From positions 1 to 17,359 of the forward strand of contig NZ_BDDQ01000040.1 in the NCBI RefSeq assembly GCF_002003465.1: a DNA stretch of 17,359 bases. The letters run 5' to 3'. A program made the translations under genes and the position numbers. This stretch comes from Caenibacillus caldisaponilyticus (lineage in GTDB: Bacteria; Bacillota; Bacilli; Bacillales; Sporolactobacillaceae). The notes under the pieces were generated by a model. It ran no database searches. It worked only from the letters and a program-made list of their open reading frames with translations, and had not been told where the DNA came from. Shown one piece after another: positions 5,152-14,698 of this stretch (its first letter is position 1; every line of letters begins with the position of its first letter).

Positions 5152-6420
5152 ATGGATGCACGGGTTCAAGAACTGATTGATTTCATTAGGACAAAATTTG
5201 GATTGCACCATTACGATTTAAAAAGGCACCGGTTCGCGCGGCATGTCAATCTCTTTAATCAAACCGTGTACACATTGAGCATGGAATGGTTTCCGGATCC
5301 GATTATCGCACAAGAGGATGAGGATTTAAATCCGGACGGGACCGCGGTGATTGACATCGACGTCAAGAGCCGCAGGGTTCAGAACGTGATTTTTGTTGGC
5401 GGCAAAACTTATGCCCGCGGCGGGATTGCGTTTGCCGGTCTCGATAAAAACGGCATGATCCAGTGGATCGAACAGGAGACAGGATTAACGTACGGGCTGC
5501 ACTTCCAACTGGAAAGGGAAGAACCAGGGGCGTTCAACTTTCAGGCTTGTTTTGACGGCATCCCGGTTTCGCCGCCCGGGTTTATCGAATTGCGCTGGGA
5601 TCCGAACAGAAACCTCACCTTATTTTCCGTCAGCGGTCCGTTTCCTTCTGAAGAAATGGTCCGGGAGGAAAGCTATGCCCTTTCCCTTGAAAAGGTGGAA
5701 CATCTGACGAAGGATCAATTCCGATTGATCGAACTTCCTTCCTATGAAGAGAAGCGGCTCGTTCCCGTCTATGCGTTGGAAGAGCTCTTTGTCACCAATG
5801 ATGGGTCATCGACGCTGCCTTTTGGACTCATTGAAAATGCAGGATCATTTCTGGAAATCGACAACATTCTGTCTTGGAACAAACCGCTTGCGCTTCCATT
5901 TGAAAGCCAAGCATTGAGTTTTACGGAGAACATAACGGCCGAACAAGCCTTCACCGGCGAGCCACATCCCGATTCTTTGCCGATTACCAAGCCTGAGCAA
6001 GAACAGTGCGTGGAGGCGGTTCGCGATTTTCTGCGCCGGGTTTATCCGAATGACAGCGGAAAATGGCGGCTTCATACGCTGCATCGCGAAAACGGATATA
6101 TTCATGCGACATTGAGAGAAAGCCGGCCCGAGGCCCGCGCGCTTCCAAGAAAACTGATCGTCATGATCGATGCGGAACATTTTCAAGCCGTCAATTATAT
6201 GGATAATCAAGCTTTGTTGGAGATTTTCGGTCCATTGCAAGCGCCTGAAAAAGTTAAAATAAAAAAAGAAGAAGCTTATGAAAAAATAAAAGATCGGATT
6301 GAGTTAAAGCCGGTCTACGTTTATGACTTCAAACAAAAACTCTATGTTTTGTGCGGAAAACTTGATTGCGGCGATGTTGTGGATGCGGTGAGCGGCGAAG
6401 TGCTGGCATTGGATGGATGA
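5152..6420 (+). CDS. YcdB/YcdC (DUF4901)-like protein with PepSY-like C-terminal repeat
   Basis: Long clean 422-aa ORF with a G-rich RBS (5139-5146). The C-terminal 'KKEEAYEKIKDRIELKPVYVYD...VDAVSGEVLALDG' resembles a PepSY module. The overall resemblance to Bacillus YcdC-type proteins is from memory. No signal peptide is visible. Confidence 0.8.
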   Translation: MDARVQELIDFIRTKFGLHHYDLKRHRFARHVNLFNQTVYTLSMEWFPDPIIAQEDEDLNPDGTAVIDIDVKSRRVQNVIFVGGKTYARGGIAFAGLDKNGMIQWIEQETGLTYGLHFQLEREEPGAFNFQACFDGIPVSPPGFIELRWDPNRNLTLFSVSGPFPSEEMVREESYALSLEKVEHLTKDQFRLIELPSYEEKRLVPVYALEELFVTNDGSSTLPFGLIENAGSFLEIDNILSWNKPLALPFESQALSFTENITAEQAFTGEPHPDSLPITKPEQEQCVEAVRDFLRRVYPNDSGKWRLHTLHRENGYIHATLRESRPEARALPRKLIVMIDAEHFQAVNYMDNQALLEIFGPLQAPEKVKIKKEEAYEKIKDRIELKPVYVYDFKQKLYVLCGKLDCGDVVDAVSGEVLALDG

Positions 6421-8268: not shown

Positions 8269-8694
8269 ATGCAATTGGACGAGATGGTTGAGACAATCAA
8301 CGAGCAATGGACGGACATCTATTACCTCTTGCATTATGTTTACGATGACAATCTCTCGCATCAAGCCATTCGTTTATTGCAATATATTGAAAAAAACGAG
8401 AAAGCGACCATAGGGGATTTAGCCAAACATTTAAAGGTGTCCCATAATACCGCTTCTGAACATACAAAAAGACTGATGAAAAAAGGGCTTGTGACGAAAC
8501 GCAGAAGCCGAACGGATGAAAGAAAGGTGTTCGTCGCTTTAACTGAAAAAGGCCGTAACGTGCTGTATCGTCATACCCGATTAGATAGGGATAAATTGAG
8601 AAAGGTTTTAGAAAATCTCAGCCCATCGGATTTGGAGATCATACAAAAGGCTTTTTCCGTTTTTAGCGAGGGAGTAAAGCAATGTTTGCGCTAG
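8269..8694 (+). CDS. MarR family transcriptional regulator
   Basis: Winged-helix segment 'ATIGDLAKHLKVSHNTASEHTKRLMKKGLVTKRRSRTDERKVFVALTEKG'. AGGAGG lies 7 nt upstream of the ATG. Confidence 0.9.
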   Translation: MQLDEMVETINEQWTDIYYLLHYVYDDNLSHQAIRLLQYIEKNEKATIGDLAKHLKVSHNTASEHTKRLMKKGLVTKRRSRTDERKVFVALTEKGRNVLYRHTRLDRDKLRKVLENLSPSDLEIIQKAFSVFSEGVKQCLR

Positions 8695-9017
8695 CAAAAA
8701 TCGTCGTATCTGCCGTCATAATTGGAATCGTAACGGAAGTGGCAAAGCGCTTCCCGACATTCGGCGGGATTATAGCCGCATTGCCGTTGGTGAGTTTACT
8801 CAGTTTAAGTTGGCTTTATATTCAAGGGGAACAAACGCCAAATCTAAGCAAATTTGTATTTGGCGTTTTATGGGGACTGCCGGCAACTTTCCTTTTATTG
8901 TTCATTGTCGCTTTGTCCTTAAAGGCTTCCAATTCATTGATTTTATCGATTGTATTAGGCATCGGCGGTTGGGGGGTATTTTTAGTCCTACAGAATATGG
9001 TATTTAAGAACATATAA
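8682..9017 (+). CDS. DUF3147-family small membrane protein
   Basis: 111-aa hydrophobic product ('GGIIAALPLVSLLSLSWLY') overlapping the MarR stop by 13 nt, with a GAGGGAG RBS. The family call is from memory. Confidence 0.75.
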   Translation: MFALAKIVVSAVIIGIVTEVAKRFPTFGGIIAALPLVSLLSLSWLYIQGEQTPNLSKFVFGVLWGLPATFLLLFIVALSLKASNSLILSIVLGIGGWGVFLVLQNMVFKNI

Positions 9018-9027
9018 ATGGATTCCC

Positions 9028-9060
9028 GCGCAGGAGACATATTCTGCGTCTGTTTTTTTT
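9028..9060 (+). terminator. rho-independent terminator of the MarR-DUF3147 unit
   Basis: Stem gcgcag/ctgcgt followed by a run of 8 T. Confidence 0.7.
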
Positions 9061-9067
9061 AGTGATT

Positions 9068-9141
9068 ACATCAAAAAATTTTGATTTATGCATTGACACA
9101 TCAAAAAAAATTGATGTAAATTTATATCAAGAAATTTTGAT
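9068..9141 (+). promoter_or_regulatory. three tandem ATCAA-N6-TTGAT inverted repeats with an embedded TTGACA promoter
   Basis: ATCAAAAAATTTTGAT (9070-9085), ACATCAAAAAAAATTGATGT (9098-9117) and ATCAAGAAATTTTGAT (9126-9141). TTGACA at 9093-9098 abuts repeat 2 (sharing its first base), and a weak -10 (GTAAAT/TAAATT, about 9116-9122) follows. All lie within 100 nt of the ArsR ATG. Confidence 0.6.
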
Positions 9142-9168
9142 CTGTTCTTTTGGAAGAAGGTGTAAGAG

Positions 9169-9564
9169 ATGACTTTAAACACTGAGCAATTGGCTAAAAT
9201 CGCAAAAGCCCTTAGCGATCCTATCCGTTTGAAAATTCTCGATCTCATTCGTGCCGGATATAGTGAATTAGATGTCAATCCTCCGGTTGCTTGTTGCACG
9301 GGCGGCGTTTGCGTCTGTGATATCCAAGAACAGATGGATATGGCGCAATCAAAAGTTTCTTATCACCTGAAAGAACTGAAAAATGCGGGCTTGGTTACAG
9401 AAACCAAGGTAGGGAAGTGGAATTTTTATTCCATAAACCGATCAACATTTCAAGATTATTTGAAAGAAATTTATCGATTATATATTGATGGCGACCCGGT
9501 TGCAACTCATATTGAGCATGGGGAAAGAAGGGAAAGCCCATATGTTCAGCAAAATCGCCCATGA
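9169..9564 (+). CDS. ArsR/SmtB family metalloregulator with extra Cys cluster
   Basis: 'LSDPIRLKILDLI...VCVCDIQEQMDMAQSKVSYHLKELKNAGLV...GKWNFYSI' is the ArsR winged helix. It carries an insertion 'GYSELDVNPPVACCTGG' directly before the CVC site. Confidence 0.9.
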   Translation: MTLNTEQLAKIAKALSDPIRLKILDLIRAGYSELDVNPPVACCTGGVCVCDIQEQMDMAQSKVSYHLKELKNAGLVTETKVGKWNFYSINRSTFQDYLKEIYRLYIDGDPVATHIEHGERRESPYVQQNRP

Positions 9565-10408
9565 TTTCTTTTCCATCGCAGTCGAATTGACTGTTTTATT
9601 CGTCGTGATCTCATTTCTTATCAGTCTCCTTCAAGGGCTCATTCCTTATGACAAGATTAACAAAGCATTGTCCGGGAAGAATACGTTTCTTGGAGTGATC
9701 GCTGCGCTTGTCTTTGCCTTTGTTACTCCCTTTTGCTCCTGTTCAACCATTCCGGTGGTTGTAAATCTGTTAAACAAGCAAGTACGGTTTGGGATTGTGA
9801 TGGTTTTTCTCTTTTCTTCTCCTGTCTTGGACCCAACCATCATCACCTTAATGGCCACTCTACTGGGAGTAAAGGTTGCGGTCGCTTATACCTTGATCAC
9901 TTCTATGTTATCGGCTGTCATTGGGCTTGCTTTAGAAAAATTGGGATTTGAAAAAGCAGTGAAACGGGTTATCATGACCGGATATGAAGAAAAGCAAGTG
10001 ACATTCAGTTTTAAACGGGCTCTAAAGGAAACGCTCGGTTTAATGAAATCTGTTTATCCTTACCTCCTCATCGGTGCGGGCATCGGTTCGATCATCCATG
10101 AGGCGGTACCATCCCAATGGATTTCAGAACACTTTAGTGGTGAAAACTGGTGGTTGGTTCCTGTGGCAGCCATCATCGGAATTCCTTTATATGTCCGAAT
10201 TTCCACGATGATCCCGCTTTCGCAAATATTGATCACAAAGGGAATGGCGTTAGGTCCTGTCATGGCTTTAATGATTGGTTCTACAGGTGCCAGCCTACCT
10301 GAGTTAACCTTGTTAAACTCTATCTTTCAAAAACGGTTAGTCATGGCTTTTGTTGTCTCCGTTGTGATGATGGCCTCTATTTCAGGCTTCCTGTTTTATA
10401 TCATTTAA
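9542..10408 (+). CDS. PF03773/ArsP-type permease with TM CxC motif
   Basis: Polytopic membrane protein. 'FVTPFCSCSTIPVV' and 'FLFSSPVLDP' match the predicted-permease (YraQ/ArsP) family as I remember it. The likely start is ATG 9542, 8 nt after GAAGGGA, overlapping the regulator by 23 nt. The track start 9485 lacks an RBS. Confidence 0.85.
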   Translation: MFSKIAHDFFSIAVELTVLFVVISFLISLLQGLIPYDKINKALSGKNTFLGVIAALVFAFVTPFCSCSTIPVVVNLLNKQVRFGIVMVFLFSSPVLDPTIITLMATLLGVKVAVAYTLITSMLSAVIGLALEKLGFEKAVKRVIMTGYEEKQVTFSFKRALKETLGLMKSVYPYLLIGAGIGSIIHEAVPSQWISEHFSGENWWLVPVAAIIGIPLYVRISTMIPLSQILITKGMALGPVMALMIGSTGASLPELTLLNSIFQKRLVMAFVVSVVMMASISGFLFYII

Positions 10409-10422
10409 AGGAGGTGAAATAC

Positions 10423-10539
10423 ATGCTGAAATGGTTTAGCCAAAAAGAAGAATCCTGTTGCAACATTCAAATCCAAGAAGTGCAATCAGAACAAAAGGAA
10501 CCATGTTGCGGTGAACAAACTGAACAAGAATGTTGCTAA
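10423..10539 (+). CDS. 38-aa acidic peptide with three Cys-Cys pairs (MLKWFSQKEESCCNIQIQEVQSEQKEPCCGEQTEQECC)
   Basis: Too short for the ORF track. AAGGAGGTG (10408-10416) lies 6 nt before the ATG, which is 14 nt after the permease stop. A terminator follows within 10 nt of the TAA. Confidence 0.55.
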   Translation: MLKWFSQKEESCCNIQIQEVQSEQKEPCCGEQTEQECC

Positions 10540-10547
10540 ACATCAAA

Positions 10548-10588
10548 AGCCCTTTGCCCTTGGTGGTAAAGGGCTAACGGTGTTTTTT
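10548..10588 (+). terminator. rho-independent terminator of the ArsR-permease-peptide unit
   Basis: 8-bp stem agcccttt/aaagggct (10548-10555 / 10568-10575); a TTTTTT run at 10583-10588 sits 7 nt after the stem. Confidence 0.6.
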
Positions 10589-10660
10589 AAATAAGTGTAC
10601 CCTGGATGACCCGCGCAGCAACTAAACAAGAATTCCCAGCCATTTTGAACATTTGATTAA

Positions 10661-10693: not shown

Positions 10694-11370
<677 letters not shown>

Positions 11371-11667
11371 GTTGTACACTCCTTTAGTGTAAGATGGATA
11401 CCCAGAGGAGTTCGGTGGAATGGGGGGGCTTGGGAGATGTCTGAACCGTAACGGCAATTGTTTTAAATGCGGTCCTTGTGTTTTTGGCCGTTGGGATCTT
11501 TAAAATTGGCATGTCTGTCGTGGTTTATGGCAGTGCCAGGATGGCGTCTCCTGTTGCGGACCAACCGATCGATAGCCCCTTAGGTTGCCAAATCACGAAA
11601 ATTCATGCAATCAAAAAACGATAAGTGTTAAAACGGATATCCATGACAAGACCAAATCTTCTTTGGC

Positions 11668-11994
11668 TTAATCGCATACAACCTTTAATCCGTTGGCTTT
11701 CAGTTCTTCAATTTCCTTAGAGGTATCCGGGAGTGTTTTGAGAAACTCTTGGAAGAAAGGGAACATGGAACCATCAAGGGAATAAAACACCCACTTTCCT
11801 TGGCGTCGCTCCTTAACGAGTTTTGCATTTTTTAGCTTTCGCATGTGTTGGGAAACGGCCGGTTGAGTCATTTTGAGGAGTTCCACTAATTCGCATACGC
11901 ATAGATCTTCTGTTCTGAGCAAGGAGAGGATGCGTAATCGAGTTTTGTCCCCCAGTGCTTTGTGATACTCCGCTAATTGCTCCCAATCAAGCAT
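11668..11994 (-). CDS. arsR: ArsR family arsenic-responsive repressor
   Basis: 'LGDKTRLRILSLLRTEDLCVCELVELLKMTQPAVSQHMRKLKNAKLV' is an ArsR HTH with a CVC site. GGGGAG RBS. It heads the unit containing arsC. Confidence 0.9.
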   Translation of the reverse strand: MLDWEQLAEYHKALGDKTRLRILSLLRTEDLCVCELVELLKMTQPAVSQHMRKLKNAKLVKERRQGKWVFYSLDGSMFPFFQEFLKTLPDTSKEIEELKANGLKVVCD

Positions 11995-12204: not shown

Positions 12205-12597
12205 GTGTTGTTTTTGGCTGAAGATCGTTGCGATATTTACTGTTATGATGAAGCGAAAGTGCGGCGGGTCCATCGTTCGCTGGAACAAGAAGACTTTCTC
12301 GGCACGGCACAGCTTTTCAAAGCGTTGGCCGATCCGACGCGCCTAAAAATTGTTTATGCTTTGGTTCAAGAGGATGAGCTTTGTGTTTGTGATGTAGCGA
12401 ATATTATCGAATCCACAGTAGCTGCGGCTTCCCATCATTTGCGCTTTCTTCGGAATATCGGCTTTGCGAAGTATCGGAAAGAAGGAAAAATGGTTTTTTA
12501 TTCTCTGGATAATGACCATGTCAAACAACTTGTCCAATTGGCATTCACTCAAAATAAGGGGTTAACCACAAGTGGAGCAAGTAAAAGTTCAAGATAA
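12205..12597 (+). CDS. cadC: Cd(II)/Pb(II)/Zn(II)-responsive ArsR-family repressor CadC
   Basis: The N-terminal '[12 protein letters not shown]' Cys pair plus '[10 protein letters not shown]...AASHHLRFL' closely parallels S. aureus pI258 CadC as I remember it. The start is uncertain: GTG 12205, TTG 12208 or TTG 12214. Confidence 0.9.
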
Positions 12598-14698
12598 AAA
12601 AGTGTACCGTGTTCAAGGGTTCACCTGTGCCAGCTGTGCAGCAAAGTTTGAGGGGAATGTGAAAAAGCTTCCCGGTGTCAGGGATGCCCAGGTAAACTTT
12701 GGAGCCGCTAAAATCACCGTATATGGGGAGCCTTCCATAAAAGATTTGGAGAAGGCCGGCGCATTTGAGAGCCTGAAGATTTATCCGGAAAATCAGGACG
12801 TCCGTATGGAGAGAGAACCCTTTTGGAAGCGGAATGAAGCCATTCAAGTCGGGGTTTCATTGGCGCTTCTCATGATCGGCTGGTTGATGGGTAAGTTCTA
12901 TGGCGAAGACAGCCTTCTTTCTGTAGCTTTTTATTTCCTTTCCATGTTAATAGGCGGATATGCTTTGTTCCGGAAAGGATTGCTAAACCTCACTCGACTC
13001 CGATTTGATATGTATACCTTGATGACGATTGCCGTCTTAGGTGCTGCTTTCATTGGTGAGTGGGGAGAAGGCGCGACTGTGGTCATTCTCTTTGCCATCA
13101 GCGAAGCGTTGGAAACCTATTCCATGAATCAGGCCCGTCAATCCATCCGCGAACTGATGGACGTTGCCCCCAAGCAAGCTCTTGTTCGCCGTGAAGGCAA
13201 GGAGTTCTTGATTCCGGTCGATGAGGTCCAGATAGGAGACATCATGATTGTGAAGCCGGGGCAAAAACTGGCCATGGATGGCGTGGTCGTCAAAGGAAGT
13301 TCCTCAATTAACCAAGCTCCGATTACAGGGGAATCCATCCCGGTGACAAAAAATGTAGGCGATCAAGTATATGCCGGAACGATAAATGAAGAAGGGCTGT
13401 TGGAAGTCAAAGTAACCAAACGCGTCGAAGATACGACCATTGCCAAGATCATCCATTTGGTCGAAGAAGCCCAGGCGGAAAAAGCGCCTTCTCAAACTTT
13501 TGTCGACCGTTTTGCCAAGATTTATACGCCTGCCATTCTGATGGCCGGATTTCTGGTTGCTGTTATTCCGCCTCTTCTGTTCCAAGCGGATTGGAACGAT
13601 TGGATCTATCGCGGGTTGGCTCTTTTGGTCGTGGGTTGCCCATGCGCATTGGTGATTTCAACACCGGTTTCCATAGTGACGGCCATCGGAAATGCCGCGC
13701 GAAACGGAGTGCTGATCAAAGGCGGCATCCATTTGGAGGAAGCCGGAGCGCTTTCCGTCGTGGCCTTTGATAAAACAGGGACTTTAACGCGTGGGGTTCC
13801 GGTGGTGACAGACTTTATTCCGTTGATATCCGACAAAGAAAAAGAGTTCTTAAGCATAGCGGCAACCATTGAGAAACACTCACAGCACCCGTTGGCCTCA
13901 GCGATTTTGCGGAAAGCGGAGGAAGAAGCCGTTCCAATTCGCGAGGTCGAAGATTTCTTCTCTCTGACGGGAAAAGGGGTCCGAGCAAAGATAAACGGGA
14001 TTTATTATTACATGGGCAGTCCTGGACTATTTGAAGAACTCTTGCCGGCCGGCATTCCAGACCAAACGAAGAAACGAATGCTTGATCTTCAACAACAAGG
14101 AAAAACCGTGATGGCATTGGGAACGGAAAGCGAAATGCTGGCTCTGATTGCCGCAGCGGATGATGTAAGGGAAAACAGTAAGGAAGTAATCCGACGGTTG
14201 CATGAACTGGGGATTAAAAAGACGGTCATGTTGACTGGCGATAACCGGGCCACGGCTGAGGCGATCGGTAAACAATTAGGAATTGGCGAAGTTCAGGCTG
14301 AACGGTTGCCTCAAGACAAATTTGAGTTTATCAAACAACTTCGTTCAGACGGTTCCAAAGTCGCGATGGTCGGCGACGGGGTCAACGATGCGCCTGCCCT
14401 TGCAGCCTCTACAGTTGGGATTGCCATGGGAGGAGCCGGTACGGATTCGGCCCTTGAAACGGCGGATATCGTGCTGATGGCTGATGACTTGGGAAAATTG
14501 CCTTTCACCATGCAGTTAAGTCGCAAAGCGTTGCAAATCATTAAGCAGAACATCACTTTTTCCTTAGCAATAAAAACGGTAGCCTTATTGCTCATCGGAC
14601 CGGGTTGGCTCACCCTATGGATGGCTGTCTTTGCGGATATGGGCGCAACGTTGATCGTTACTTTAAATGGGCTGAGATTGCTGAAAGTGAAAGATTAA
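12572..14698 (+). CDS. cadA: Cd2+/Zn2+/Co2+-translocating P1B-type ATPase
   Basis: One N-terminal HMA domain '[12 protein letters not shown]', TM 'CPC' ([13 protein letters not shown]), 'DKTGTLT', 'SQHPLA' and '[10 protein letters not shown]'. GTG start with TAAGGGGT upstream; it overlaps the cadC end by 26 nt. Confidence 0.95.

What the first reader, a model, noticed from the sequence alone, without database searches (positions are those of the whole stretch)
9066..10590. ArsR(4-Cys) / CxC permease / tri-CC micropeptide operon: candidate undescribed thiophilic metal(loid) module
Seen in the sequence:
- One compact unit runs from a triple-operator promoter region (9068-9141) to a hairpin+T-run terminator (10548-10588).
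- The regulator stop at 9564 overlaps the permease ATG at 9542, and the peptide ATG lies 14 nt after the permease stop with a near-perfect RBS.
- All three products place cysteines in pairs or clusters: regulator 'ACCTGGVCVCD', permease 'TPFCSCSTIP', peptide SCC / PCC / ECC.

Established knowledge (from memory):
- ArsR/SmtB repressors sense soft metals through Cys clusters.
- ArsP-type PF03773 permeases with a TM Cys-x-Cys pair were linked to organoarsenical efflux in Campylobacter.
- Vicinal Cys pairs are the As(III)/Sb(III) ligands of the ArsD chaperone.

Inference: this is a self-contained sensor + exporter + soluble Cys-pair carrier or buffer. I know of no ars, cad or mer system with such a third component. 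It lies beside an ars operon that has lost its own pump, so it may be the working efflux route here.
Basis: partly seen in the sequence, partly recalled or inferred. Interest (0 to 1): 0.8.

Follow-up and report, generated by a model that had tools for sequence, protein, structure and literature searches.

The report
Arsenic pump operon with cysteine-pair micropeptide
This is an arsenic-type sensor-plus-export-pump operon whose third gene encodes a tiny protein studded with cysteine pairs; that protein belongs to a widespread, conserved and so far unnamed family that always travels with this kind of pump and probably hands the toxic metalloid to it.

Summary
Window 9066-10590 (Caenibacillus caldisaponilyticus) holds one transcription unit:
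- a promoter covered by three ATCAA-N6-TTGAT operators;
- an ArsR repressor;
- an overlapping PF03773 (ArsP-type) permease with a TPFCSCS motif;
- a strongly SD-led 38-aa ORF with three CC pairs;
- a strong terminator.

The regulator and permease are a known kind, arsR-arsP. Homologous cassettes sit among ars genes in 47 of 81 loci. They are controlled by arsenic-type regulators (ArsR, MarR_ars-like, PadR) that all carry CC pairs.

The new part is the micropeptide.
- It is present in 70 of 81 Bacillales loci.
- It shows codon periodicity and pN/pS of about 0.48; 369 of its 374 Cys lie in CC runs.
- It forms at least 156 clusters (50% identity) in public data. All are "hypothetical", with no Pfam or NCBIfam model, and I found no literature on it.
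- It stays beside PF03773 permeases despite changes of regulator and gene order.
- It occurs fused to a thioredoxin domain and to a MerT-like protein.
- It is rarer where the permease carries its own CC-rich loop (Fisher p about 0.0015).

Best reading: a disordered, possibly membrane-tethered dithiol partner that captures trivalent (organo)arsenicals and passes them to the permease. The mechanism is inferred, not shown.

The parts
9028..9058 (+). Terminator-like hairpin plus T-run ending the upstream MarR/small-membrane-protein unit. It insulates the operon on its 5' side.
   Evidence: stem 9028-9049, then CTGTTTTTTT
9070..9085 (.). Operator O1, ATCAAAAAATTTTGAT (ATCAA-N6-TTGAT palindrome)
   Evidence: The same motif occurs upstream of related ArsR-type cassettes.
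9093..9122 (+). Sigma-70-like promoter: TTGACA, 18 nt spacer, TAAATT (10 of 12 matches)
   Evidence: a consensus match only
9100..9115 (.). Operator O2, ATCAAAAAAAATTGAT, lying in the promoter spacer
9126..9141 (.). Operator O3, ATCAAGAAATTTTGAT, just downstream of the -10 hexamer
9169..9564 (+). arsR: an ArsR/SmtB repressor of 131 aa. It has the alpha-3 CVCD motif. A 14-aa insertion (YSELDVNPPVACCT) carries an extra CC pair, and relatives' C-terminal CC tail is absent.
   Evidence: Pfam HTH_5 at E 1e-12 and NCBIfam HTH_metalloreg at 83 bits. PDB relatives are Lmo1102 and CgArsR.
9542..10408 (+). arsP-type permease of 288 aa (PF03773) with C65-S-C67 in TPFCSCSTIP and a short K/R-rich central loop that has no Cys. 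Its start overlaps arsR by 23 nt.
10408..10417 (+). Shine-Dalgarno sequence AAGGAGGTGA for the micropeptide, with GGAGG 8 nt before the ATG
   Evidence: An equivalent SD is conserved in nearly all related loci.
10423..10539 (+). CC micropeptide gene of 38 aa, with SCC, PCC and a C-terminal ECC. It belongs to a conserved, unnamed family.
10538..10588 (+). Intrinsic terminator: a two-tier hairpin with dG -24.5 kcal/mol followed by U6
10700..11994 (-). Context, not part of the unit: a decayed convergent ars operon. It comprises arsR (11668-11994), an arsB remnant (11531-11599), arsC (10948-11370) and trxB with an internal deletion (10700-10926).

Best explanation
This is an arsenic-type resistance operon, arsR-arsP-(CC micropeptide).

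**Shown by sequence and comparison.**
- An ArsR repressor gene is preceded by three copies of its clade's operator (ATCAA-N6-TTGAT), which cover the promoter.
- A translationally overlapping PF03773/ArsP-type permease has an invariant Cys-x-Cys in a membrane segment.
- A co-transcribed, SD-led micropeptide gene follows and is under purifying selection.
- That micropeptide is a family-wide companion of such permeases.

**Inferred.**
- Trivalent arsenicals bind the repressor's Cys cluster (CC plus CVC) and release it from the operators. The likely inducers are MAs(III)-like organoarsenicals, which need only two thiols, and possibly As(III)/Sb(III).
- The acidic, disordered peptide is held near the inner membrane face or the permease by its basic amphipathic N-terminus and the conserved CC-x-V-x-I-x-E-V segment.
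- Each vicinal CC pair captures one arsenical. The peptide then passes it by thiol exchange to the permease's Cys-x-Cys, which exports it.
- The peptide therefore works like ArsD for ArsA, or CopZ for CopA, but for a secondary permease.
- In other lineages the same thiol-donor function is supplied in cis by a CC-rich loop between TMS4 and TMS5 of the permease. In others the slot after the permease holds a thioredoxin-like or DGC-domain protein.
For: **Anatomy:**

**Operator is functional-looking.** The same palindrome occurs in 2-6 copies before arsR and before the permease in all ArsR-type cassettes (31 of 80 loci). The recognition helix QSK[VL]SYHLK is shared.

**The peptide is a real gene.**
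- It is present in 70 of 81 loci at 0-48 nt after the permease stop, with AAGGAGG-type SDs.
- Variability is 3-periodic (entropy 1.06/0.73/1.51 at codon positions 1/2/3). Cys codons vary only at the wobble base. Pooled pN/pS is 0.48. Of 374 Cys, 369 lie in CC runs.
- A profile search finds 156 clusters at E <= 1e-3, nearly all 32-73 aa.

**Coupling to the permease.**
- The pairing is kept at 46% permease identity (B. cereus plasmid).
- It is kept with MarR, ArsR or PadR regulators.
- It is kept with the peptide upstream instead of downstream.
- It occurs fused into a MerT-like protein next to a PF03773 gene, and fused to Thioredoxin_3 directly after the permease.

**Cis/trans complementarity.**
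- Enterobacterial plasmid homologues have no such peptide but carry 1-4 CC pairs and further Cys in the central loop.
- In 59 evaluable metagenome loci a CC-type ORF adjoins 11 of 17 permeases with <=1 extra Cys, against 8 of 42 with >=2 (p = 0.0015).
- The ~100-aa insertion type of ArsP was noted by Castillo & Saier (PMC2963123).

**Arsenic assignment.**
- 47 of 81 loci hold ars structural genes within 4 kb: ArsN1 31, ArsC 19, ArsB 14, ArsM 5, ArsA 4, ArsD 4, Acr3 4.
- An ArsM gene directly follows the permease in L054 and L060.
- The MarR regulators carry the CC plus C-terminal Cys pattern of As(III)/MAs(III)-responsive MarR_ars (bioRxiv 10.1101/2021.08.12.456183).
- arsP in Exiguobacterium is induced by arsenic (PMC7374977).

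**Peptide properties.**
- It is predicted disordered: pLDDT 62, no secondary structure.
- The N-terminal part has net charge +2.4 and the tail -2.9.
- Some members have GLFKRLFGG or GFIKRLFGG, almost the E. coli MinD membrane-targeting sequence KGFLKRLFGG (PMC5471200).
Against: - There is no experimental datum for any step. Substrate, binding, hand-off and membrane association are all inferred.
- Eleven of 81 loci keep the permease without the peptide, so it is not indispensable. Several metagenome permeases with no extra Cys have no detectable partner.
- PF03773 also contains Cu/Zn exporters: the SO_0444 model matches at 76 bits, and Shew_3410 has a zinc phenotype.
- CadA lies nearby in 9 loci and in the window.
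- A CC pair alone cannot give the three-sulfur site typical of inorganic As(III).
- The window peptide's own N-terminus (MLKWFSQKEES) is less basic and less MinD-like than the family norm. The hydrophobic-moment test did not beat shuffled controls.
- The fusions to Thioredoxin_3 could instead point to redox chemistry.
- The small-ORF detector used was a regular expression and produced a few false calls in both directions.
Confidence: 0.5

Rival explanations
1. Local sink, or metallothionein-like buffer. The peptide merely sequesters thiophilic metal(loid)s in the cytosol through its CC pairs and never delivers them to the permease.
For: - It has high Cys (12%) and acidic content and is predicted disordered.
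- The number of CC pairs varies from 1 to 6, and the CC unit shows tandem copy-number change (L014-L017). This looks like tuning of capacity.
Against: - A bulk buffer would not need the invariant non-Cys segment x-V-x-I-x-E-V, or the conserved basic N-terminus.
- It would not need strict adjacency to one permease family across changes of regulator and gene order.
- It would not be replaceable by a loop inside the permease.
- Ten of the 67 unique Bacillales peptides have only one CC pair, which is a poor buffer.
Confidence: 0.17
2. Same architecture, different substrate. The unit exports Cd, Zn, Cu, Hg or organomercurials rather than arsenicals.
For: - The permease matches the SO_0444 Cu/Zn efflux model (76 bits) and the SaoE model (85 bits), both far below their cut-offs.
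- A DUF318/ArsP relative has a zinc phenotype in Shewanella.
- CadC-CadA lies next door in the window and CadA in 9 loci.
- One family member is fused to a MerT-like protein.
Against: - Ars structural genes, not cad, czc or mer genes, dominate the neighbourhoods (47 of 81).
- ArsM or ArsN1 directly follows the cassette in many loci.
- The regulators carry the Cys patterns of arsenic sensors: MarR_ars, and C-terminal CC(x5)C or CC-only ArsR tails.
Confidence: 0.12
3. Redox helper. The CC pairs act as a dithiol/disulfide couple. They either keep the permease's Cys-x-Cys reduced, or reduce or release thiol-bound or pentavalent organoarsenicals before export. This is the role usually guessed for the thioredoxin-like proteins found after PF03773 genes.
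For: - Two independent fusions join the peptide module to a Thioredoxin_3 domain (L103 at E 5e-26, and L115).
- Redox-active disulfide protein 2 and thioredoxin genes occur in ars operons (PMC2963123).
- trxB lies near several cassettes.
Against: - Vicinal disulfides are strained and rare (my own knowledge).
- The peptide has no CxxC motif and no fold.
- In the fusions the thioredoxin domain brings its own GCxxC, so the two parts look complementary rather than equivalent.
Confidence: 0.1
4. Regulatory micropeptide. The peptide binds the permease and gates or stabilises it, with metalloid binding to the CC pair as the switch. It is not itself a carrier.
For: - The docking-like segment is conserved and the peptide is co-translated with the permease in a fixed ratio.
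- Small proteins that modulate transporters are well known (my own knowledge).
Against: - The variable, multiplied CC tail and its equivalence to long CC-rich loops fit ligand handling better than a switch.
- There is no hydrophobic segment of the kind typical of membrane-embedded regulators.
Confidence: 0.06
5. Not a gene. The ORF is a chance reading frame in the permease 3' UTR or terminator region.
For: - It is only 38 codons long.
- RefSeq leaves it unannotated in some records, for example pJ45TS6.
Against: - It is conserved in 70 of 81 loci with an SD.
- It shows codon periodicity and wobble-only change in Cys codons, with pN/pS 0.48.
- A profile search finds 156 clusters.
Confidence: 0.01

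Closest known systems
arsR-arsP / MarR_ars-arsP units (ArsP organoarsenical efflux permease, TC 2.A.119, PF03773; Campylobacter jejuni, Shewanella, Exiguobacterium)
   Same: - A thiol-sensing repressor sits directly upstream of a PF03773 permease with the TPFCSCS Cys-x-Cys motif.
- The unit is located in or beside ars gene clusters.
- The ~300-aa type is one of two known ArsP types.
   Different: - No third gene has been described for these units in the papers I could search.
- Here, and in most Bacillales homologues, a CC micropeptide gene is attached.
- The window's regulator carries its CC pair in an insertion before the CVC motif, not in the C-terminal tail.
ArsD metallochaperone (PF06953), which delivers As(III) to the ArsA ATPase
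   Same: - Both are small cytosolic proteins encoded with an arsenic pump.
- A vicinal Cys pair is the ligand: Cys12-Cys13(-Cys18), plus further CC pairs in the ArsD tail (PMC12607644; ArsD in L038 reads DPAMCCPTGVCG).
- The proposed role is to capture the metalloid and hand it to the transporter.
   Different: - There is no sequence or fold relationship. The peptide has no Pfam hit and is predicted disordered.
- The partner is a secondary permease, not ArsA.
- It is 28-70 aa, against about 120 aa for ArsD.
- The core has two Cys, not three.
ArsP type with ~100-aa hydrophilic insertion between TMS4 and TMS5 (Castillo & Saier 2010)
   Same: It is the same permease family. In the examples read here the inserted loop is rich in Cys and carries CC pairs, so it could do in cis what the peptide does in trans.
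   Different: The window permease is the short type. Its loop has no Cys, and the CC module is a separate gene.
SaoC (CC-COOH protein beside the ArsP-family exporter SaoE) and DUF466 YbdD/YjiX (RCC-COOH, beside CstA transporters)
   Same: These are small or accessory proteins with a terminal CC motif, encoded next to a transporter. SaoE shares the CSC motif.
   Different: - SaoC is a lipoprotein of about 158 aa with a signal peptide.
- There is no detectable homology, the locus (nine-gene SAO system) is different, and the taxa are different.
- The window peptide has no signal peptide. Its conserved CC is internal, not only C-terminal.
Bacterial metallothioneins (SmtA/BmtA type)
   Same: Both are small, Cys-rich, metal-regulated proteins encoded beside an ArsR/SmtB-family repressor.
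   Different: - There is no family match.
- Cys content is lower and occurs almost only as CC pairs in an acidic, low-complexity chain.
- The peptide is obligately linked to a permease.

Membership tests
ArsR/SmtB metalloregulators (window 9169-9564) | Winged-helix HTH_5 domain | tested here: met
   Pfam PF01022 at E 1.2e-12. NCBIfam NF033788 at 83 bits against a cut-off of 55.
ArsR/SmtB metalloregulators (window 9169-9564) | Thiolate sensing site, such as the alpha-3 CVC of arsenic-responsive ArsRs | tested here: met
   CVCD aligns with the CVCD of Lmo1102 (PDB 9t6r) and of related cassette ArsRs. An extra CC lies 4 residues upstream. Actual ligand binding was not tested.
ArsR/SmtB metalloregulators (window 9169-9564) | Autoregulated promoter with inverted-repeat operator(s) | tested here: met
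   Three ATCAA-N6-TTGAT sites lie over the promoter. The same motif is conserved at the equivalent positions of the ArsR-type cassettes. Binding itself was not tested.
ArsR/SmtB metalloregulators (window 9169-9564) | Derepression by a specific metal(loid) | not testable with these tools
   Needs EMSA or reporter assays with As(III), MAs(III), Sb(III), Cd, Zn, Cu and Hg.
ArsP organoarsenical efflux permease (PF03773, TC 2.A.119) | PF03773 membrane domain of about 300 aa with about 8 TMS | tested here: met
   PF03773 at E 2.2e-48 covering residues 5-285 of 288. The hydropathy profile shows two hydrophobic halves separated by a K/R-rich loop.
ArsP organoarsenical efflux permease (PF03773, TC 2.A.119) | Conserved membrane Cys-x-Cys pair (TPFCSCS) | tested here: met
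   C65-S66-C67 is invariant in 22 close homologues. The two Cys are invariant in the 7-sequence alignment of diverse homologues, and C-x-C is kept in all 8.
ArsP organoarsenical efflux permease (PF03773, TC 2.A.119) | Genomic association with ars genes and regulators | tested here: met
   47 of 81 loci have ars structural genes within 4 kb. Regulators are of ArsR, MarR_ars or PadR type with CC pairs.
ArsP organoarsenical efflux permease (PF03773, TC 2.A.119) | Efflux of MAs(III)/Rox(III) and resistance to them | not testable with these tools
   No NCBIfam equivalog model for ArsP matched. The SaoE and SO_0444 models match only far below cut-off.
ArsD metallochaperone (for the micropeptide) | PF06953 thioredoxin-like fold | tested here: not met
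   No Pfam or NCBIfam hit. The AlphaFold model has pLDDT 62 and no secondary structure.
ArsD metallochaperone (for the micropeptide) | Cys12-Cys13-Cys18 three-thiol site | tested here: not met
   Only the CC pair is invariant. No third Cys is conserved at a fixed distance.
ArsD metallochaperone (for the micropeptide) | Works with the ArsA ATPase | tested here: not met
   There is no arsA in the window. ArsA is present in only 4 of 81 loci. The constant neighbour is the permease.
Metallothionein (for the micropeptide) | Match to a metallothionein family model, with dense C-x-C / C-x-x-C clusters | tested here: not met
   No family hit. Cys makes up 11.9% of residues, and 369 of 374 Cys lie in CC runs.
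SaoC / DUF466 CC-COOH proteins (for the micropeptide) | Homology, and for SaoC a lipoprotein signal peptide and a length of about 158 aa | tested here: not met
   The profile search returns only proteins carrying the same CC module, nearly all 32-73 aa. The sequence has no hydrophobic leader.
CC micropeptide family defined here | Short basic N-terminus, invariant CC, x-[VI]-x-I-x-E-[VI], acidic tail with 0-5 further CC pairs, and a gene adjacent to a PF03773 permease | tested here: met
   The window peptide scores E 4e-6 and 2e-6 against family profiles. C12, C13 and E19 are invariant in A3; I17 is >=90% conserved in A1-A3, and E19 is >=90% in A1. Its position 14 nt after the permease is shown.

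The most novel reading that the evidence does not exclude
The CC micropeptide is the founding example of a new class of membrane-face metalloid chaperones for secondary permeases. More generally, PF03773 Cys-x-Cys exporters would need a cytosolic vicinal-dithiol donor. That donor would be supplied interchangeably in three ways:
- as a separate micropeptide;
- as a thioredoxin-like or DGC-domain partner;
- as a CC-rich loop built into the permease.

This would explain the long-unexplained ~100-aa insertion type of ArsP and the 'redox-active disulfide protein 2' genes in ars operons.
Probability: 0.3. Interest if true: 0.75.

Novelty: new variant of a known kind. Interest (0 to 1): 0.65.

Why it matters
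ArsP-type permeases are widespread resistance determinants against methylarsenite and aromatic arsenicals, which include natural antibiotics and former feed additives. How they acquire substrate is unknown.

A conserved, mostly unannotated micropeptide that travels with them adds a missing component to the ars toolkit.
- It gives a concrete, cheap experimental handle: a 38-aa synthetic peptide and Cys-to-Ser variants.
- It offers one explanation for three scattered observations: Cys-rich loops in long ArsPs, thioredoxin-like genes after PF03773 genes, and CC pairs in every regulator of the cassette.
- It shows that genome annotation systematically misses a functional gene in ars islands of Bacillales. 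This includes the plasmid pJ45TS6, where the ORF is unannotated.
- A 2025 review still states that no arsP has been found in Bacillus ars operons. The loci collected here show otherwise.
- CC-pair peptides could also be useful as genetically encoded organoarsenical binders or biosensor parts.

Tried and rejected
- **Leader or attenuator peptide.** Rejected. The ORF lies after the permease and, in the window, directly before a terminator. It is conserved whether or not a gene follows.
- **RiPP precursor.** Rejected. No modifying enzymes recur in 81 neighbourhoods. The only hit, to a RiPP model, had E 0.24.
- **Galaxin_repeat hit** (24 bits, below the cut-off of 28) for one long member. Treated as a compositional CC-repeat match.
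- **Homology to SaoC, DUF466, ArsD or metallothionein.** Not found.
- **Helical hydrophobic-moment test of the N-terminus.** Values equal MinD's targeting sequence, but shuffled controls score the same. The test says nothing, and only the sequence resemblance remains.
- **AlphaFold of the peptide with its family alignment.** Low confidence, no structure.
- **PDB sequence search for the permease.** No relative. I did not model the permease, because the tool returns no coordinates from which to locate the Cys-x-Cys.
- **Nucleotide search of plasmids.** One hit only, but it was the key lead, pJ45TS6.
- **The ArsP paper** (PMC4681449) is not held. Statements about ArsP substrates therefore rest on reviews and on my own knowledge.
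- **First peptide searches** failed on the 40-aa minimum. I repeated them with the 41-aa GTG-start form as query and as first row of alignment A2.
- **My first filter** (>=3 Cys) wrongly scored single-CC peptides as absent. This was corrected.


Full report
**Source and observation**

Exact protein look-ups place the window in Caenibacillus caldisaponilyticus: permease WP_077616092.1 and ArsR WP_077616091.1, on a 17,359-bp contig.

- Three exact ATCAA-N6-TTGAT palindromes lie at 9070, 9100 and 9126. The window has 4 matches against 0.06 expected. They cover a TTGACA-18-TAAATT promoter-like site.
- The 131-aa ArsR ORF (9169-9564) contains ACCTGGVCVCD.
- The permease ATG at 9542 overlaps the ArsR ORF by 23 nt.
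- The 288-aa permease is PF03773 (E 2e-48) with C65-S-C67 in TPFCSCSTIP.
- Fourteen nt after its stop, and 8 nt after a GGAGG, starts a 38-codon ORF: MLKWFSQKEESCCNIQIQEVQSEQKEPCCGEQTEQECC.
- A two-tier hairpin (dG -24.5 kcal/mol, z -5.4) plus U6 follows directly.
- An upstream terminator-like site at 9028-9058 closes the preceding unit.

**The regulator and permease are a known kind**

I fetched 80 genome loci with permease homologues at 59-77% identity. Nearly all are Bacillales; three are Negativicutes. I clustered their neighbours.

- 47 of 81 loci, window included, hold at least one ars structural gene within 4 kb: ArsN1-like 31, ArsC 19, ArsB 14, ArsM 5, ArsA 4, ArsD 4, Acr3 4.
- In L054 and L060 an arsenite methyltransferase gene starts 14 nt after the permease.
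- The gene directly upstream of the permease is a regulator in nearly all loci, and its family changes.
  - In about 52 loci it is a MarR with a CC near the N-terminus and a CC at the extreme C-terminus.
  - In about 25 loci it is an ArsR with CVCD plus a C-terminal LCC(x5)C or LCC tail.
  - In a GC-rich metagenome lineage it is a PadR with GCC.
- The MarR pattern matches the published MarR_ars subfamily. That subfamily has Cys36/Cys37 plus a C-terminal Cys, responds to As(III), Sb(III), MAs(III) and Rox(III), and is found next to arsV, arsP and arsN.
- arsP in ars operons has been known since Castillo & Saier 2010. arsR-arsP was reported and shown to be arsenic-induced in Exiguobacterium.

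"Sensor plus exporter" is therefore an arsR-arsP unit, not an undescribed module.

**The window's ArsR is a local variant**

- It shares the recognition helix (QSK[VL]SYHLK) and the CVCD motif with the ArsRs of the other cassettes.
- It has a 14-residue insertion (YSELDVNPPVACCT) that carries the CC, and it lacks their Cys-bearing tail.
- It is found only in a handful of near-identical contigs.
- Its operator is not local. ATCAA-N6-TTGAT occurs in 2-6 copies in all ArsR-type cassettes, both before arsR and just before the permease, in 31 of 80 loci. This is good comparative support for the operator assignment.

**The micropeptide is the new element**

A Paenibacillus plasmid gave the first lead. 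It holds an unannotated ORF after a permease that is 70% identical at the nucleotide level (75% as protein), reading ...DDCCSVKIEEV...SCCNIKIEEV...DSCC....

*Presence in the 81 loci.*
- An intact homologue follows the permease in 70 loci, at 0-48 nt, almost always behind an AAGGAGG-type SD.
- One locus has a frameshifted remnant (L028).
- Three Negativicutes have a DGC-domain (PF08859) Cys-rich protein in the same slot.
- The remaining seven (L041, L050, L051, L054, L055, L060, L072) have no such ORF after the permease.

*The family pattern.*
- A short basic N-terminus, typically M-x-LLKKLFG-x-KK.
- An invariant CC followed by x-[VI]-x-I-x-E-[VI].
- An acidic tail with 0-5 further CC pairs.

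*Coding signals.*
- Entropy at codon positions 1/2/3 is 1.06/0.73/1.51.
- The Cys codons change only at the wobble base.
- Pooled pN/pS is 0.48.
- 369 of 374 Cys are in CC runs.

*Database status.*
- No Pfam or NCBIfam model matches.
- A profile search of 5.8 billion proteins returned 44 small "hypothetical proteins".
- An exhaustive profile search of 1.84 billion representatives returned 156 clusters at E <= 1e-3, nearly all 32-73 aa.
- Literature searches for a small Cys-rich partner of ArsP found nothing.

**Coupling to the permease goes beyond synteny within one clade**

1. At 46% permease identity, a B. cereus plasmid still has MarR(CC...CC) - permease - 46-aa CC peptide, annotated as hypothetical WP_000523765.1.
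2. In GC-rich metagenome contigs the order is ArsR - peptide (three CCGVRIEEV units) - permease. Elsewhere it is PadR - permease - 120-aa CC protein, beside ArsR-ArsD.
3. In a 35% GC genome, three DCCN[IV]SIEEVKENKPN units sit inside a MerT-like three-TM protein encoded immediately upstream of a PF03773 gene.
4. Two metagenome loci fuse the peptide module to a Thioredoxin_3 domain directly after the permease (L103 at E 5e-26, and L115).
5. Enterobacterial plasmid homologues (345-383 aa, with a divergent arsR) have no such peptide. Instead they carry 1-4 CC pairs and further Cys in a long loop between the two membrane halves. This is the ~400-aa ArsP type noted in 2010.
6. In a diverse metagenome sample (80 loci, 32-54% identity to a distant permease), a CC-type small ORF adjoins 11 of 17 evaluable permeases with at most one Cys beyond the Cys-x-Cys, against 8 of 42 with two or more (Fisher p = 0.0015). 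Scored by CC in the permease, the figures are 15 of 28 against 4 of 31 (p = 0.0017). The detector was a regular expression with a few errors in both directions, so these numbers are approximate.

**Mechanism**

*Shown.* The operon anatomy, the conserved operator, the conserved and selected peptide, its constant partnership with PF03773 permeases, the cis/trans pattern, and the arsenic context.

*Inferred.*
- Trivalent arsenicals are the inducers and substrates.
- Each CC pair binds one arsenical. Organoarsenicals need two thiols, which a vicinal pair supplies.
- The peptide is disordered on its own: AlphaFold gives pLDDT 62 and no secondary structure.
- It acts at the cytoplasmic face of the permease and passes the ligand to C65/C67 by thiol exchange.
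- The window permease's central loop is K/R-rich (9 K+R in the 74-residue inter-segment stretch), so it is probably cytoplasmic. This fits the cis version lying in that loop.

*Membrane association.* The peptide's N-terminus is basic (+2.4 on average, against -2.9 for the tail). In some members it reads GLFKRLFGG or GFIKRLFGG, nearly the E. coli MinD membrane-targeting sequence KGFLKRLFGG. A hydrophobic-moment test did not beat shuffles, and the window's own N-terminus is atypical. Membrane tethering is therefore only a suggestion.

*Likelihoods.* I put the chaperone or hand-off reading at about 0.5. The rivals are a passive sink (0.17), another thiophilic metal as substrate (0.12), a redox helper (0.10), a gating regulator (0.06), and a non-gene (0.01).

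**Context claim**

The neighbouring convergent ars operon is decayed.
- Between arsR (11668-11994) and arsC (10948-11370) only ArsB residues 17-39 survive, at 91% identity (11531-11599).
- trxB has lost residues ~56-292 (10700-10926).
- No other arsenite pump is in the window. The near-identical locus L082 shows only Rrf2, NmrA, DoxX, TetR, MarR, CadC/CadA and glyoxalase genes around it.

Whether the ArsP unit substitutes for ArsB cannot be decided here. The rest of the genome is unseen, and ArsP is known for organoarsenicals.

**Verdict**

- The operon is a new variant of a known kind: arsR-arsP plus a conserved, undescribed CC micropeptide family.
- The peptide family, its interchange with Cys-rich permease loops and its fusions are the points of interest, and they are directly testable.

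Noticed in passing
window 10700-11994 (minus strand): The convergent ars operon is decayed. arsB is reduced to a 69-nt remnant (ArsB residues 17-39, 91% identical). trxB (arsT-like) has an internal deletion joining about residue 55 to about residue 293. arsR and arsC look intact.
   Followed up: yes
window 9169-9564, compared with the upstream regulators in L033-L081: Within one ArsR clade that shares an operator and a recognition helix, the sensory CC pair sits in different places. In relatives it is in the C-terminal tail, LCC(x5)C or LCC only. In the window it is in a 14-aa insertion just before the CVC. This looks like relocation of a metalloid site. The window arrangement (CC-x4-C-x-C) has the same CC-x4-C spacing as the ArsD site seen in L038 (AMCCPTGVCG).
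   Followed up: partly
L002-L081, L086, L093 (regulator directly upstream of the permease): Regulators are swapped on a constant permease-peptide cassette. Types seen are MarR with two CC pairs (about 52 loci), ArsR (about 25 loci) and PadR with GCC (metagenome). Three loci (L025, L053, L070) have no adjacent regulator but carry 2-3 ATCAA-N6-TTGAT operators, which suggests control in trans.
   Followed up: partly
L039, 878 nt after the permease start (between the permease stop and the peptide SD): An extra operator-like palindrome, ATCAATTTATTTTGAT, lies between the permease and the peptide gene. It hints at separate control of the peptide in Aquibacillus.
   Followed up: no
L014-L017, L024 (Brevibacillus); P0218; P0229: The unit SCCNVxIEEVKxDKE varies in tandem copy number between close relatives: two units in L014 and L016, three in L015 and L017. 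Similar duplications occur elsewhere, so the CC module behaves like an expandable repeat.
   Followed up: partly
L029, L030, L035 (Negativicutes); L103, L115; L097: The slot after the permease holds other Cys-rich proteins in other lineages:
- a DGC-domain protein (PF08859);
- Thioredoxin_3 fused to the CC module;
- a carboxymuconolactone-decarboxylase (AhpD-like) protein ending PCCDNAAGNCCR.
   Followed up: partly
L105, L134 and the C-terminal half of P0312 (L093 3403-3765): A further unnamed small domain (...GGCCP..., then ...G..IG/V..L.D.L...) with no Pfam match recurs next to PF03773 genes. In P0312 it is fused behind the CC module.
   Followed up: no
window 8269-9017: A MarR-family gene (8269-8694) overlaps a 111-aa small membrane protein gene (8682-9017). 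That protein has a weak DUF3147 match, and is called BV97_02767 in L082. The pair lies just upstream of the operon and ends at its own terminator. Its function is unknown, and this MarR has no CC pairs.
   Followed up: no
window 12205-14698: A CadC-type ArsR/SmtB regulator gene overlaps a Cd/Zn/Pb P-type ATPase gene (CadA-like, TIGR01512 at 532 bits), divergent from the decayed ars operon. The window is therefore a small metal-resistance island.
   Followed up: no
window 5714-5729: A fourth exact ATCAA-N6-TTGAT match (ATCAATTCCGATTGAT) lies inside the 5152-6420 ORF. It is GC-richer in the spacer than the operators and is probably chance.
   Followed up: no
L001/L007 3816-4007 (plasmid pJ45TS6, NZ_LC597664.1): The CC micropeptide gene is unannotated in this RefSeq plasmid record, where it lies between the permease and arsN1. 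A 2025 review states that arsP has not been detected in Bacillus ars operons, yet dozens of Bacillaceae loci here carry it.
   Followed up: yes
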